Source: Escherichia coli (GTDB lineage Bacteria; Pseudomonadota; Gammaproteobacteria; Enterobacterales; Enterobacteriaceae). Taken from it: a DNA stretch of 64,000 nt. The notes under the pieces are model-generated. The model had not been told where the DNA came from, made no database searches, and saw only the letters and a list, made by a program, of their open reading frames with translations. A program made the position numbers and the translations under genes. The stretch lies in NCBI RefSeq assembly GCF_024502345.1, contig NZ_JALDNN010000001.1, one strand, 5' to 3'. Shown in pieces: positions 42,227 through 44,499 of this stretch. How positions within the stretch are numbered: position 1 is the stretch's first letter; each line of letters starts with the position of its first letter.

Positions 42227-42335
42227 AAGTGCCTAATATGGCCGTAGTTGAGGCAATAAATAGAGGGACAAGTGACGTTAAGCTGAATTAGAGTAAATGG
42301 CGTGAGGACACACGCCATTCGAGGTTATAGTTTGA

Positions 42336-42650
42336 TTAATTTTCGAAAAATTGCTTCACAGCCCAGCCACCATGACCACCTGGAGTTATGAATGAAACAA
42401 AACCTTTGTCATCGACGCTCTGGATTTCTACCGTCATTGATTCATCTAACACGCGACATTTATTGGATGTAATGAGACTCAGCATAGCCTGTTGGTCATT
42501 GTCCTGGATGTAACTGATCATCTCGTAAAAGTCAGTTAACTTTTTACAGTTAAATGTACCTTCTTTAAGTGTTGCGCTGTCTCCGTGACTTAGTGCGAAT
42601 GCATTTGGCATCATTGCCACAAAGATGACGGTAACGAGTAGTTTTTTCAT
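42336..42650 (-). CDS. hypothetical small secreted protein (104 aa, 2 Cys)
   Basis: Signal peptide MKKLLVTVIFVAMMPNAFA; 9 bp downstream of the 115-aa ORF, so probably co-transcribed; no family recognised. Confidence 0.6.
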   Translation of the reverse strand: MKKLLVTVIFVAMMPNAFALSHGDSATLKEGTFNCKKLTDFYEMISYIQDNDQQAMLSLITSNKCRVLDESMTVEIQSVDDKGFVSFITPGGHGGWAVKQFFEN

Positions 42651-42659
42651 TTTAGCCTC

Positions 42660-43007
42660 TTATAATTCAGAACATTCACTGATGTTGTAAGTGCCTTTTC
42701 TACCATCATCGTTTACGAGATGTAGCACGAAGATGATGGGATTGGCATCAATGAAAGATACAGAGACGTTCCCGCTTTCGGTGCTATACATCTTTGCAAT
42801 CTGTTTTTCACCAATATATGAGAGATCCCAACTCACTCCGTTCAAGCTAAAATGCATCTGTTTGCCGTCAATATCGATGGAGGATTGTGCCGTAACGGTT
42901 TTCCCATTGCTGCCAATTTGATCCTGCTGAAGAGCATCACATTTATAGGAGCTTGCATAAGTAGATAGAGGTAGTAGCAGAAGTGCAGCAAAAATTTTAC
43001 TCTTCAT
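42660..43007 (-). CDS. hypothetical small secreted protein (115 aa, Cys near each end)
   Basis: Signal peptide MKSKIFAALLLLPLSTYA; SD-like sequence upstream; no family recognised. Confidence 0.6.
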   Translation of the reverse strand: MKSKIFAALLLLPLSTYASSYKCDALQQDQIGSNGKTVTAQSSIDIDGKQMHFSLNGVSWDLSYIGEKQIAKMYSTESGNVSVSFIDANPIIFVLHLVNDDGRKGTYNISECSEL

Positions 43008-44058
43008 ATTTTCCCTTTGCTTGGATTTGAGTTACCTATTTTGGGGTAGTCATTATAAAACTATTAATTAGTAAAACGAACAAGTTTTCATTTGTTTAGC
43101 AATGGTATTGTTTAGGTTTGATATTATTACGTACTTTCATAGCAATAGGTTGGATAAACAGCAGTTCAGGGAACAAGTTGCACTATCTACATACTTTTCC
43201 GCTTTCCATTGCATGTTAGGTAATAGATAGCCTTTGCCCGTAAGACTAAAAATATTAGAAATGACTCATTCGAATACCTTCTATTCACCTTAATATAGGT
43301 TTGATTATTGTAATCGTTTAATGTGTCTTATGGATTTTTTCCTACTTTTCATTTGCATAATATAGGGGGCACAGCATGCTCTTGAAATTAATTATTAAAA
43401 TATTTAAATTTTACAGCACACAACTACTTTTCGTTGTCTTATGTGTTGAACGTACTTCGAGTATAGGTAGGGTTGTATATATATTGCGTGGGTAGAGTTA
43501 GAATAGAGGAAGCATCATTTATAGAATATTCAAGAACGTTAGCCTGTGATCAATAAATAAAAATATCAAATGGTGTTCAAACATATTTTTCTATGAAAAA
43601 TCCAGCCATCTATGATGAATTTTTAGATCCATTTTAATTAAAGTATGATTATGAACCAAGATTTAGCCAAGAATGGTGGTATAGCGCGTATCCAATGACA
43701 CCGGAAAACGCATCTATGAAGTCCTTATTTATCTCTATAAGAGGAAATCAACACTAATAAAATGTAGTGATGTAACACATCGAGCAGGTTGCTCTGATGC
43801 TGGTCTTCAACTGTGGCTTAAACAGCTATCAAACTTCGGTGTTATTGAGATGAAAGAATTATCATTCTCAACTATCAATCTCAAAAAGCTAGAGAAAATA
43901 GACCTTAATTATTCCACTCTCTAAATTTATCTATTTATTTAAAGTAAAAATGAAAATATTATGGTATCAGCTACGTGGTGGTAACTGGTTTTTATGATCA
44001 TAGGTACATATACAGGGAACCCTGGAAAACGAAAGTAATATATTGATGATTTCGTTTG

Positions 44059-44298
44059 TTATAACTTCGTGGTATCAAGTCCGGCGGCTTTGAGTCGCTC
44101 GGTAAGATTTCTCATTTTGCTGAACTCTGTAGCAAAGCTGGCTTTAAGTCCTACACCTTCGCAAAACTCTTTTGCCGTGACGTTTTTCAGATGGTCAGCG
44201 TATTTGATCATCTGGAGGTGCATTTCCATCGTTTGGCTATTTCGTGGTGCGCTGCTAATGGCTTGCTTAATGTTCTCGTAGATCTGGGTTTCTGTCAT
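44059..44298 (-). CDS. hypothetical 79-aa protein (may start 6 codons earlier at 44316)
   Basis: ORF with SD-like ggtgag before MTETQIYENIKQ...; no signal peptide; no family recognised. Confidence 0.5.
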   Translation of the reverse strand: MTETQIYENIKQAISSAPRNSQTMEMHLQMIKYADHLKNVTAKEFCEGVGLKASFATEFSKMRNLTERLKAAGLDTTKL

Positions 44299-44499
44299 TT
44301 TTATCTCACCTATCAAATTTAGATAAATAATATAAATTAGCTAATTAAGATAGTCTACAGTTTTTACCACCTGAATGATGGGTGTGAATTGTTTCTTTTT
44401 CATTACTGATATGGGGTACACAGCGAAGACGTAATGAATGGAGGCGAGCTTGCATCTGCAAGCCTCTTCCCCTAAGCTGGCACAAAATATAGAGATTCA

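What the first reader, a model, noticed from the sequence alone, without database searches (positions are those of the whole stretch)
42230..44400. Roughly 2.1 kb AT-rich islet between rcnR and the thiM TPP riboswitch
In K-12, as I recall it, rcnR and thiM are separated only by a short intergenic region holding the riboswitch. Here about 2.1 kb of markedly AT-rich DNA sits between them. It carries a two-gene operon for small secreted proteins (42336..43007, minus), about 1 kb with no ORF over 60 codons (43008..44058), and a 79-aa ORF (44059..44298, minus) abutting the riboswitch. The composition and the lack of recognisable homologs suggest horizontally acquired, possibly H-NS-silenced DNA. 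It is the only block in the window I cannot account for. It has no large enzymatic gene, so if it is a functional system it is an unusual one built from small proteins or RNAs.
Basis: partly seen in the sequence, partly recalled or inferred. Interest (0 to 1): 0.6.

Follow-up and report, generated by a model that had tools for sequence, protein, structure and literature searches.

The report
Decayed riboswitch-targeting defence island remnant
The AT-rich 2.3 kb block is the immobilised wreck of mobile phage-defence islands that insert into the thiM thiamine riboswitch; the block itself is ordinary, but a riboswitch used as the landing site appears not to have been described.

Summary
2,271 bp (42227..44497, 36.7% GC against 49.4% for the window) replace the 91-bp rcnR-thiM spacer of K-12-type strains. 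The whole block occurs in 339 of 5,426 complete E. coli genomes, mostly O157:H7 and O55:H7.

It is not a system built from small genes. It is a mosaic remnant of integrase-borne islands whose attachment site is the first 82 bp of the thiM TPP aptamer (44498..44579). Intact relatives in E. coli, Klebsiella, Citrobacter and eight further genera carry two aptamer copies, a tyrosine integrase and variable anti-phage cargo.

- **Lost in the window:** attL, the native thiM promoter and the integrase, of which only a roughly 31-codon, stop-interrupted fragment survives (43145..43237).
- **ORF-less kilobase:** pseudogene debris explains about 40% of it.
- **79-aa ORF:** an orphan RptR repressor (Pfam PF24718; 69% identical to PDB 9R2Z) that keeps its 3 x 9-bp operator.
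- **Two secreted proteins:** an orphan island-backbone pair, a PliC/MliC-like beta-barrel and an SH3-like barrel. Both are under purifying selection; their function is unknown.

One consequence follows: thiMD must now be transcribed from island DNA. The block is ordinary. The riboswitch as attB is the unexpected part.

The parts
42224..42226 (+). rcnR stop codon (TGA here, TAA in K-12-type genomes). This is the left breakpoint; similarity to the empty site ends here.
   Evidence: Base-by-base comparison with the empty site L003; annotation.
42227..42335 (-). Left junction DNA. 42227..42291 has no relative in any locus examined. From 42292 on it is homologous to the Klebsiella/Citrobacter module. 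It contains a terminator-like hairpin downstream of the 104-aa gene (stem 42313..42300).
   Evidence: blastn against L010/L014 starts at 42292-42295; terminator scan.
42336..42650 (-). 104-aa secreted protein (ECs_2910, annotated 'outer membrane protein'). It has a signal peptide and two Cys, and is predicted as an SH3/Tudor-like small barrel plus two helices. Function unknown.
42660..43007 (-). 115-aa secreted protein (ECs_2909). It has a signal peptide and an N- and a C-terminal Cys, and is predicted as an 8-stranded beta-barrel of PliC/MliC/lipocalin-like shape. It is a backbone gene of the thiM islands.
43008..43093 (-). Upstream region of the 115/104 operon, conserved with the Citrobacter module. 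It has a perfect -10 hexamer TATAAT at 43057..43052 with a weak -35.
   Evidence: blastn to L010 extends to 43093; sequence read. The consensus scan found no full promoter here, so the promoter is inferred.
43145..43237 (+). Pseudogene fragment: roughly the last 31 codons of the island tyrosine integrase, interrupted by a stop.
   Evidence: tblastn with eight integrases from E. coli, Klebsiella and Citrobacter all hit this spot, matching residues about 402-432 of 435 (E down to 1.5e-6). The translation ...SGNKLHYLHTFPLSIAC*VIDSLCP compares with the consensus ...GITxRYLHTFPLSTVCYVIDGLCW.
43494..43634 (+). Pseudogene fragment: C-terminal 47 codons of the island's Rep-initiator-like HTH protein.
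   Evidence: tblastn with L006 21417-22079, E 5e-12, 45% identity. That protein hits PHROG replication-initiation families. DNA similarity to 'helix-turn-helix' genes elsewhere.
43694..43891 (+). Pseudogene fragment of the island's 81-aa ORF (residues 16-81; N-terminus lost).
   Evidence: tblastn 77% identity, E 2e-33. DNA is 86-87% identical to L004/L005 from 43619 onward.
44059..44298 (-). rptR homolog (ECs_2908): a 79-aa RptR-family repressor with no cargo gene downstream (orphan).
   Evidence: Pfam HTH_73 PF24718, E 2e-30. PDB 9R2Z, E 1.5e-31, 69% identity, with E25, E58, S60, K61, L69, A72 and L74 conserved (PMC12255303). dN/dS 0.03-0.08. The BL21 ortholog ECD_02033 precedes EcoBLMcrX.
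44319..44357 (-). rptR promoter and operator. -35 TAGACT (44357..44352), 17-nt spacer, -10 TATATT (44334..44329). Three 9-bp units ATTAGCTAA | TTTATATTA | TTTATCTAA (44345..44319) carry the RptR sites TAGCTA and TATCTA on either side of the -10.
   Evidence: Promoter scan, palindrome, site search. The arrangement matches the DR1/s/3 layout shown to be bound and repressed by RptR (PMC12255303). Conserved in other E. coli islands.
44412..44497 (+). Conserved right arm of the element. It holds the TGGGGTACA repeat (one copy here, 2-3 in relatives; candidate integrase arm site), a hairpin at about 44441..44466, and the invariant TATAGAGATTCAA (-10-like TATAGA at 44488..44493). It now occupies the position of the thiM promoter.
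   Evidence: 7-way alignment of E. coli, Klebsiella and Citrobacter right ends; blastn 81% to L010/L014; motif search. Promoter and arm-site roles are inferred.
44498..44579 (+). attR core: 82 bp duplicated at both ends of intact islands. It covers the TPP aptamer from 8 nt before the P1 5' strand to 2 nt before the P1 3' strand.
   Evidence: A perfect 82-bp direct repeat flanks the CUVET19-1704 island, and the same repeat occurs in L005/L006. Aptamer register from the Rfam alignment.
44501..44597 (+). Intact thiM TPP riboswitch aptamer. The expression platform and the thiM start (44632) are identical to K-12.
   Evidence: Rfam RF00059, 71.2 bits against a gathering score of 54.3; sequence identity to L003.

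Best explanation
The block is a non-mobile, mosaic remnant of two members of one family of integrative elements. These elements are defence-cargo islands and capsid-encoding satellite-like elements, and they use the thiM TPP riboswitch aptamer as their chromosomal attachment site.

**How an intact element sits (shown).** A tyrosine integrase gene lies at the left end and an 82-bp copy of the aptamer lies at the right end, behind a conserved arm. Integration leaves the native promoter and the first 82 bp of the aptamer at attL, about 66-86 nt upstream of the integrase gene. The element-borne arm and aptamer copy are joined to the native P1 3' strand, the expression platform and thiMD at attR.

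**What happened in the O157:H7/O55:H7 lineage (inferred).** Two such elements sat in tandem and three deletions fixed them.
1. One deletion ran from the rcnR stop codon through the native spacer, attL, integrase and cargo of the left element, up to the 3' flank of its 104/115-aa operon.
2. A second ran from upstream of that operon through the internal att site and the first ~400 codons of the right element's integrase.
3. A third was internal to the right element and left Rep-like and 81-aa ORF fragments.

**What still works (inferred from sequence).**
- An autoregulated orphan RptR repressor.
- A two-gene operon for small periplasmic proteins: a PliC/MliC-like barrel and an SH3-like barrel. 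Their most likely role is to bind or inhibit an envelope-acting factor such as a peptidoglycan hydrolase, but this is weakly supported.
- An intact riboswitch whose transcription must start in element DNA, probably at the invariant TATAGA.
For: **Site occupancy.** K-12-type genomes have a 91-bp spacer, which is replaced here. The block occurs in 339 of 5,426 genomes.

**Intact relatives at the same site.** They have an integrase and two TPP riboswitch copies: CUVET19-1704, STEC711, 33-6 and AREA_C483. A perfect 82-bp direct repeat flanks the island, and the window's right edge coincides with it.

**Family range.** The Klebsiella island L014 is flanked by aptamer copies and holds the 104/115 pair, 77% identical in DNA. 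13 of 15 integrase relatives from eight further genera (Lelliottia, Enterobacter, Erwinia, Silvania, Cedecea, Pantoea, Mangrovibacter and others) have an aptamer copy ending GCCAGCGTAG about 86 nt before the integrase ATG.

**Cargo.** Cargo in relatives is anti-phage: type IV HNH restriction, GmrSD, TIR-STAND, SIR2 and EcoBLMcrX (PMC5487053).

**Debris in the window.** Integrase, Rep-like and 81-aa ORF fragments are present.

**Mosaic origin.** rptR and the 104/115 pair co-occur only in this block. Tandem arrays do exist, as in Citrobacter L010.

**RptR.** See and PMC12255303.

**Selection on the three ORFs.** dN/dS is 0.03-0.16.

**Right arm.** It is conserved across three genera.
Against: - No attL, integrase or direct repeats exist in the window, so its history is reconstructed from relatives only.
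- The tandem-plus-three-deletions scenario is one of several possible orders of events, and no intermediate form was found in E. coli.
- 65 bp at the left junction (42227..42291), and about 600 bp of the ORF-less stretch, match nothing examined.
- No consensus sigma-70 promoter was detected in the right arm, so the claim that it drives thiMD is inference.
- Integration or excision by this integrase family has not been shown experimentally.
- The dN/dS values measure selection across the family, not specifically in the O157 lineage.
Confidence: 0.85

Rival explanations
1. The three small genes, possibly with an RNA from the ORF-less kilobase, form one functional horizontally acquired system.
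For: All three ORFs are intact and under purifying selection. The block is conserved at 99% or more in over 300 genomes.
Against: - rptR and the 104/115 pair belong to different element lineages and are found together only here.
- They are separated by integrase, Rep-like and 81-aa ORF debris.
- rptR has its own autoregulated promoter, and no RptR site lies upstream of the 115-aa gene.
- No Rfam match was found at E <= 1.
- The high conservation within O157/O55 reflects clonality.
Confidence: 0.05
2. The 115/104 operon is the selected payload, which is why the remnant persists. It would be a periplasmic inhibitor module against peptidoglycan hydrolases: host C-type lysozyme, phage virion lysins or endolysins, or T6SS amidases.
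For: - Both proteins have signal peptides and conserved Cys pairs.
- The 115-aa model's best structural matches are the PhiA, PliC, MliC and ACP lysozyme inhibitors, with weak matches to 'C-type lysozyme inhibitor' AFDB entries.
- dN/dS is strongly purifying.
- The gene is kept in the backbone of islands whose cargo is anti-phage.
Against: - There is no sequence-level match to MliC/PliC (no Pfam hit; PDB profile search gives only a tick lipocalin at E 0.13).
- The 104-aa partner matches only generic SH3/Tudor-like barrels.
- There is no PADLOC hit.
Confidence: 0.2
3. The block is ancestral E. coli DNA that was deleted in most lineages, rather than an acquisition.
For: The left breakpoint sits exactly at the rcnR stop codon and no target duplication is present in the window.
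Against: - GC content is 37% against 49%.
- There is an integrase fragment and an att-coincident right edge.
- The native 91-bp spacer is retained at attL in genomes that carry intact islands.
- The block is present in only 6% of genomes.
- The nearest relatives of the left module are in Klebsiella and Citrobacter mobile islands.
Confidence: 0.02
4. The remnant matters mainly as a regulatory rewiring. Replacing the thiM promoter with AT-rich island DNA changes thiMD expression (for example through H-NS silencing or RptR-linked control), and the orphan RptR cross-regulates other RptR-controlled loci.
For: The native promoter region is absent. The arm upstream of the aptamer is invariant across genera. 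RptR homologs with the same operator occur at other chromosomal and plasmid loci in E. coli.
Against: There are no expression data. No RptR site lies in 44400..44497. The riboswitch and expression platform are unchanged, so TPP control should persist.
Confidence: 0.15

Closest known systems
RptR-regulated defence islands (EPEC RRDM island; Zhang et al., NAR 2025, PMC12255303; PDB 9R2Z; Pfam HTH_73 PF24718)
   Same: The 79-aa protein is 69% identical, with all named DNA-binding and dimerisation residues conserved. Its own promoter carries TAGCTA and TATCTA sites in 9-bp units across the -10. It sits at the edge of a defence-type island.
   Different: No Type I R-M, DarTG or any other gene lies downstream, so the regulator is orphaned. 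In relatives at this site the partner is a type IV or methyl-directed nuclease (EcoBLMcrX) rather than a Type I system.
E. coli B genome island next to thiM carrying EcoBLMcrX (Fomenkov et al. 2017, PMC5487053)
   Same: Same chromosomal site. Same rptR-type first gene (ECD_02033, 94% identical) and same right arm and aptamer junction. It is also a decayed island, truncated by IS1.
   Different: BL21 keeps the nuclease and Rep-like genes and lacks the 104/115 pair. O157 lacks the nuclease. That paper's main text mentions neither the riboswitch nor an integrase.
Integrative elements that target the 5' end of a gene and supply a new 5' part: dusA-specific integrase islands (Farrugia et al. 2015, PMC4482086) and SXT/R391 in prfC (my recollection)
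   Same: A tyrosine integrase sits directly beside attL. Integration falls in the 5' portion of the target transcription unit, and the element carries a replacement copy so that the target stays functional.
   Different: Here the duplicated target is a non-coding regulatory RNA aptamer, not coding sequence. The element must replace the promoter rather than an N-terminus.
Integrases that target structured RNA genes (tRNA, tmRNA, ffs; e.g. PMC12540744)
   Same: The attB lies in a highly conserved, structured RNA-coding sequence shared across genera. The core is long (82 bp) and tandem arrays form.
   Different: tRNA-type sites are hit at the 3' end, and the element restores the 3' part. Here the element restores the 5' 82 nt of a cis-regulatory leader.
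PICI / capsid-forming PICI phage satellites
   Same: One relative at the same att site (AREA_C483, 13 kb) encodes a major capsid protein, a tape-measure-like protein, a Sie-like protein and a related integrase. The ~8-kb islands carry a Rep-initiator-like gene.
   Different: The window has none of these genes. The satellite nature of the ~8-kb islands was not tested.
PliC/MliC periplasmic lysozyme inhibitors (and Brucella PhiA, Neisseria ACP)
   Different: There is no detectable sequence homology or Pfam MliC match, and the family motifs were not found. This is a structural resemblance only.

Membership tests
RptR / HTH_73 repressors | Sequence membership (Pfam PF24718; homology to the solved RptR, PDB 9R2Z) | tested here: met
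   PF24718 E 2e-30 over residues 2-71. 9R2Z E 1.5e-31, 69% identity over 77 residues.
RptR / HTH_73 repressors | Conserved alpha-4 DNA-binding residues (E58, K61, S60) and dimerisation residues (E25, L69, A72, L74) | tested here: met
   All seven are identical. Residue list from PMC12255303.
RptR / HTH_73 repressors | At least two 6-bp sites (TAGCTA, TAGATA, TATCTA or TATATA) in its own promoter, overlapping the -10 | tested here: met
   TAGCTA at 44338-44343 and TATCTA (- strand) at 44325-44320 flank the -10 TATATT within three 9-bp units.
RptR / HTH_73 repressors | First gene of a defence operon (R-M or other cargo downstream) | tested here: not met
   Downstream of the stop at 44059 lie only convergent pseudogene fragments. 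The BL21 ortholog does have EcoBLMcrX downstream.
RptR / HTH_73 repressors | Binds the operator and represses transcription | not testable with these tools
   Needs EMSA or a reporter assay.
Site-specific integrative island (active element) | Intact integrase gene | tested here: not met
   Only a stop-interrupted fragment of roughly the last 31 codons survives at 43145-43237.
Site-specific integrative island (active element) | attL and attR direct repeats flanking the element | tested here: not met
   The window has only the attR copy (44498-44579) and no repeat on the left. Relatives have perfect 82-bp repeats.
Remnant of the thiM-aptamer-targeting island family | Right edge coincides with the family's att core and conserved right arm | tested here: met
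Remnant of the thiM-aptamer-targeting island family | Contains backbone genes or fragments of the family | tested here: met
   115-aa gene, integrase fragment, Rep-like fragment, 81-aa ORF fragment and rptR.
TPP riboswitch (RF00059) | Covariance-model score above the gathering threshold with an intact P1 | tested here: met
   71.2 bits against 54.3. The attL hybrid in CUVET19-1704 scores 61.3 bits with two non-standard P1 pairs.
PliC/MliC lysozyme inhibitors (115-aa protein) | Sequence or profile membership (Pfam MliC) | tested here: not met
   No Pfam hit even at E 10. The PDB profile search finds no PliC/MliC.
PliC/MliC lysozyme inhibitors (115-aa protein) | 8-stranded periplasmic beta-barrel fold | tested here: inconclusive
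PliC/MliC lysozyme inhibitors (115-aa protein) | Inhibits lysozyme | not testable with these tools
   Biochemical assay needed.
Known anti-phage defence systems (PADLOC) | Any of the three window proteins matches a defence-system model | tested here: not met
   0 families for all three proteins.
H-NS-silenced xenogeneic DNA | AT-rich relative to the genome | tested here: met
   36.7% against 49.4% GC.
H-NS-silenced xenogeneic DNA | H-NS occupancy and derepression in an hns mutant | not testable with these tools
   Needs ChIP or RNA-seq data for an O157 strain.

The most novel reading that the evidence does not exclude
A family of tyrosine integrases across Enterobacterales uses a riboswitch aptamer (thiM TPP) as attB. 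Its elements carry an aptamer copy and a promoter to re-drive thiMD.

Integration also places the integrase gene about 66-86 nt behind the native thiM promoter and a P1-crippled aptamer. Integrase expression, and so excision, could therefore be coupled to thiamine status or thiM promoter activity.

Separately, the orphan 115/104-aa periplasmic pair kept in the island backbone could be a new envelope-level anti-phage or anti-lysin module.
Probability: 0.2. Interest if true: 0.7.

Novelty: new variant of a known kind. Interest (0 to 1): 0.4.

Why it matters
For O157:H7 itself the block is a fossil, and it explains the only unaccounted stretch of the window. It also means that the thiMD operon of this pathogen lineage no longer has its native promoter.

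The wider point is that a riboswitch aptamer serves as the attachment site for a whole family of defence islands and satellite-like elements in at least eleven enterobacterial genera.
- This extends the rule that integrases target conserved structured-RNA genes to a cis-regulatory leader.
- It gives a ready marker, a duplicated TPP aptamer, for finding such islands and their anti-phage cargo.
- It offers a natural case in which a mobile element must rebuild both a promoter and most of a riboswitch.

The block also supplies an orphan RptR for testing cross-regulation, and a two-protein periplasmic family with no known function.

Tried and rejected
- **Family searches on the two secreted proteins.** NCBIfam, PADLOC and Pfam gave nothing significant; the best was DUF4369 at E 0.041.
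- **PHROGs.** There were perfect full-length hits for all three proteins. I discounted them as evidence of phage origin because no phage genome record matches the block.
- **RNA in the ORF-less region.** Only the TPP riboswitch was found.
- **Flanking direct repeats in the window.** None were found.
- **An intact E. coli island carrying the 104/115 pair.** None exists among 5,426 genomes. Intact versions turned up only in Klebsiella and Citrobacter.
- **Exhaustive profile search for distant relatives of the 115-aa protein.** The family is essentially closed.
- **PDB sequence searches with both protein alignments.** No meaningful hits.
- **Consensus promoter in the right arm.** None passed the scan.
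- **Literature.** Searches for thiM or a riboswitch as an integration site, and for ECs2908-2910, found only the E. coli B island paper and one supplementary table row labelled 'rcnR-thiM'.
- **Single-element origin by inversion.** Rejected, because the strands of the 115-aa gene and the integrase fragment do not fit an inversion.
- **ORF-less AT-rich stretch of intact islands.** It shows only weak inverted repeats. I did not pursue it.
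Full report
**1.

The window shows rcnA (-), rcnR (+, stop at 42224-42226), an AT-rich block, the TPP riboswitch (44501-44597) and thiMD. The two adjacent minus-strand ORFs (104 aa, 42336-42650; 115 aa, 42660-43007) both begin with signal peptides. No ORF above 42 aa lies in 43008-44058. A 79-aa ORF lies at 44059-44298.

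The block has 36.7% GC against 49.4% for the window and is the most AT-rich 2.27-kb stretch in it.

In a K-12-type genome, rcnR and the riboswitch are 91 bp apart (L003). A base-by-base comparison puts the breakpoints immediately after the rcnR stop, which is TGA here and TAA in K-12. The other breakpoint is at 44498, three bases before the Rfam aptamer start. The 91 native bases are absent from the whole window, so this is a replacement of 91 bp by 2,271 bp.

Of 5,426 complete E. coli genomes, 339 hold the whole block. They are mostly O157:H7 and O55:H7, with a few others such as NCTC9064 and 2EC1.

**2. The key lead: intact islands at the same site, flanked by two riboswitch copies.**

A dog isolate (CUVET19-1704) matched only the right-hand kilobase of the block, at 87% identity. 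Its annotation shows a 7.6-kb island between rcnR and thiM, with a TPP riboswitch annotated at each end. The island carries these genes:
- a tyrosine integrase
- a type IV HNH nuclease
- a 115-aa ORF
- an HTH gene
- a DNA invertase-like recombinase
- a Rep-initiator-like protein
- an 81-aa ORF
- an 'HTH-like' 79-aa gene

A self-comparison gives a perfect 82-bp direct repeat. The repeat starts at the same base as the window's right breakpoint. It ends at ...GCGTAGGG, two bases before the 3' strand of aptamer helix P1.

At attL the native spacer and promoter are retained, and the integrase ATG follows 66 nt after the Rfam match. At attR the element's own arm precedes the aptamer copy, which is followed by the native P1 3' strand, the expression platform and thiM. 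The hybrid aptamer at attL still passes the Rfam threshold (61.3 bits) but has two non-standard P1 pairs.

The same architecture recurs widely.
- **E. coli STEC711 and 33-6** have it, the latter with GmrSD as cargo.
- **E. coli AREA_C483** has a 13-kb element with a major capsid gene, a tape-measure-like gene and a Sie-like gene.
- **Klebsiella and Citrobacter** have islands with TIR-STAND, SIR2, Beta_protein and HigB/M78 cargo.

The integrase DNA is present in 147 E. coli genomes. The rptR-right-arm module is present in at least 550.

A scan of one genome per species returned 15 integrase relatives. The genera were Lelliottia, Enterobacter, Erwinia, Citrobacter, Silvania, Rahnella, Cedecea, Pantoea and Mangrovibacter. 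In 13 of them an aptamer copy ends at GCCAGCGTAG about 86 nt before the integrase start.

I therefore regard the link between this integrase family and the thiM aptamer as shown. Recombination itself is inferred.

**3. Anatomy of the window's block in that light.**

I compared the island proteins against the block by tblastn, with these results:
- The 115-aa ORF is a full-length, 42%-identical homolog of the conserved 115-aa backbone gene.
- Roughly the last 31 codons of the integrase lie at 43145-43237 (+). All eight integrases tested hit there. The translation continues to match across an internal stop.
- The last 47 codons of the Rep-like protein lie at 43494-43634.
- Residues 16-81 of the 81-aa ORF lie at 43694-43891.
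- The 79-aa gene is 97% identical to its island counterpart.

Pseudogene debris therefore accounts for about 40% of the 'ORF-less kilobase'. DNA shared with the intact islands covers 43619 onward. About 0.6 kb remains unassigned.

The 104/115 operon, its terminator and 86 bp of its upstream region (42292-43093) are 76-77% identical to a module in the Klebsiella and Citrobacter islands. In those islands the order, in thiM orientation, is integrase - cargo - resolvase - 104(-) - 115(-) - ... - thiM. In the window the integrase fragment lies to the right of the 115-aa gene and on the opposite strand. A single element cannot give that order, and an inversion would give the wrong strands.

rptR and the 104/115 pair co-occur only in this block among all loci fetched. 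Tandem arrays at this att site do exist, as in Citrobacter L010.

The simplest reading, which is inference, is two tandem elements reduced by three deletions. One of those deletions removed attL together with the native thiM promoter.

**4. The three surviving genes.**

*(a) The 79-aa protein is an RptR.*
- Pfam HTH_73 matches at E 2e-30.
- It is 69% identical to the crystallised EPEC RptR, PDB 9R2Z.
- Every residue that the authors single out is conserved: E25, E58, S60, K61, L69, A72 and L74 (PMC12255303).

Its promoter is TAGACT-17-TATATT. It is overlaid by three 9-bp units, ATTAGCTAA | TTTATATTA | TTTATCTAA. The outer two carry the RptR sites TAGCTA and TATCTA. That is the two-sites-flanking-a-spacer layout shown to be bound and repressed.

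In E. coli B the orthologous gene (ECD_02033) precedes the methyl-directed nuclease EcoBLMcrX (PMC5487053). In the window nothing follows it, so it is an orphan autoregulator.

*(b) The 115-aa protein.*
- It belongs to a nearly closed family, with two full-length clusters among 1.84 billion representatives.
- The AF2 model (pLDDT 80.6) is an 8-stranded barrel.
- Foldseek gives only weak hits, several of them to 'C-type lysozyme inhibitor' entries.
- There is no sequence-level support.

*(c) The 104-aa protein.* The model (pLDDT 85) is an SH3/Tudor-like barrel with a helical hairpin. Its matches are generic.

All three genes show dN/dS of 0.03-0.16 against their relatives, so they are real genes. 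What the periplasmic pair does remains open. An envelope-level inhibitor role is my best guess, at low confidence.

**5. The right arm and thiMD.**

The last ~90 bp of the element (44412-44497) are conserved among E. coli, Klebsiella and Citrobacter islands. They contain three features:
- TGGGGTACA repeats, with one copy here and two or three elsewhere
- a hairpin
- an invariant TATAGAGATTCAA placed just upstream of the aptamer

The native promoter is gone and the riboswitch and expression platform are unchanged. Transcription of thiMD must therefore begin in island DNA. TATAGA (44488-44493) is the candidate -10, but the consensus scan did not call a promoter there. This step is inferred.

**6. 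Comparison with what is known.**
- RptR is published (2025).
- An island beside thiM in E. coli B is published (2017). That paper's main text mentions neither 'riboswitch' nor 'integrase'.
- A pan-genome defence-island survey lists an 8-kb 'rcnR-thiM' island carrying RM_type_IV in a supplementary table.
- Full-text searches found no description of a riboswitch as an attachment site.
- The closest mechanistic analogues are the dusA-5'-end integrases (PMC4482086) and, from my own knowledge, SXT in prfC.
- More loosely related are integrases that target tRNA, tmRNA or ffs.

**7. Verdict.**

The block is an ordinary decayed genomic-island remnant, not a novel small-gene system. Its interest lies in what it reveals: a riboswitch-targeting island family and a promoter swap at thiMD. 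It also holds two uncharacterised periplasmic proteins and an orphan RptR.

Interest is 0.4. Novelty is 'new variant of a known kind', subject to the limits of the literature that could be searched.

Noticed in passing
L004 2345-4108; L005 18624-20387; L006 18997-20983: Intact E. coli thiM islands contain a 1.8-2 kb AT-rich stretch with no ORF above 54 aa. It lies next to a Hin/Gin-like DNA invertase gene. A 17-nt inverted repeat (L004 2512-2528 / 3947-3963) brackets 1.4 kb of it, so it may be an invertible or non-coding segment.
   Followed up: partly
L026 2348-6069; L032 2349-5814: In Enterobacter cloacae and Mangrovibacter the two aptamer copies are only about 3.4-3.7 kb apart. These are mini-elements made of the integrase plus about 2 kb.
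   Followed up: no
L010 5590-20315: Citrobacter freundii carries a tandem array at thiM. A capsid-encoding element is followed by an internal att copy (19635-19707), and then by an integrase island with SIR2, Beta_protein and HigB/M78 cargo and the 104/115 pair.
   Followed up: partly
L019-L025, L033, about 2415-2440 (attL junctions): Most non-E. coli attL junctions have a perfect hairpin GGCCGAAATTCGGCC directly after the att core, between the displaced aptamer and the integrase gene. The E. coli CUVET-type islands have lost it. It could insulate the integrase from thiM-promoter read-through.
   Followed up: no
window 44412-44420 versus alignment A3: The window keeps one TGGGGTACA repeat in the right arm, where intact islands have two or three. 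This is a small deletion in a candidate integrase arm site, consistent with decay.
   Followed up: partly
window 42224-42226: The rcnR stop codon is TGA here and TAA in K-12-type genomes. The left breakpoint therefore lies inside or directly after the stop codon, and the RcnR protein is unchanged.
   Followed up: yes
L023 (QFQM01000240.1): A contig labelled 'MAG: Flavobacterium psychrophilum' carries an enterobacterial-type integrase (79% identical) behind a thiM-type aptamer. It is probably a mis-binned contig.
   Followed up: no
window 42336-43007 (cluster look-up): The unrelated 104-aa and 115-aa proteins are filed in the same 90%-identity cluster of the protein collection, which is probably a clustering artefact. 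The window's exact 115-aa sequence is on only 19 contigs, while the common O157 variant is on at least 1,000.
   Followed up: no
window 44055-44363; plasmid hits H152-H160: The rptR gene and its promoter are 84.6% identical to a module beside tyrosine recombinase genes on many E. coli plasmids. More distant copies occur on Acinetobacter, Vibrio and Yersinia plasmids.
   Followed up: no
NZ_LR134315.1 1666921-1670497 (H1): Strain NCTC9064 matches the window at 100% but has an IS1 inserted within the span of the block, showing further ongoing decay of the remnant.
   Followed up: no
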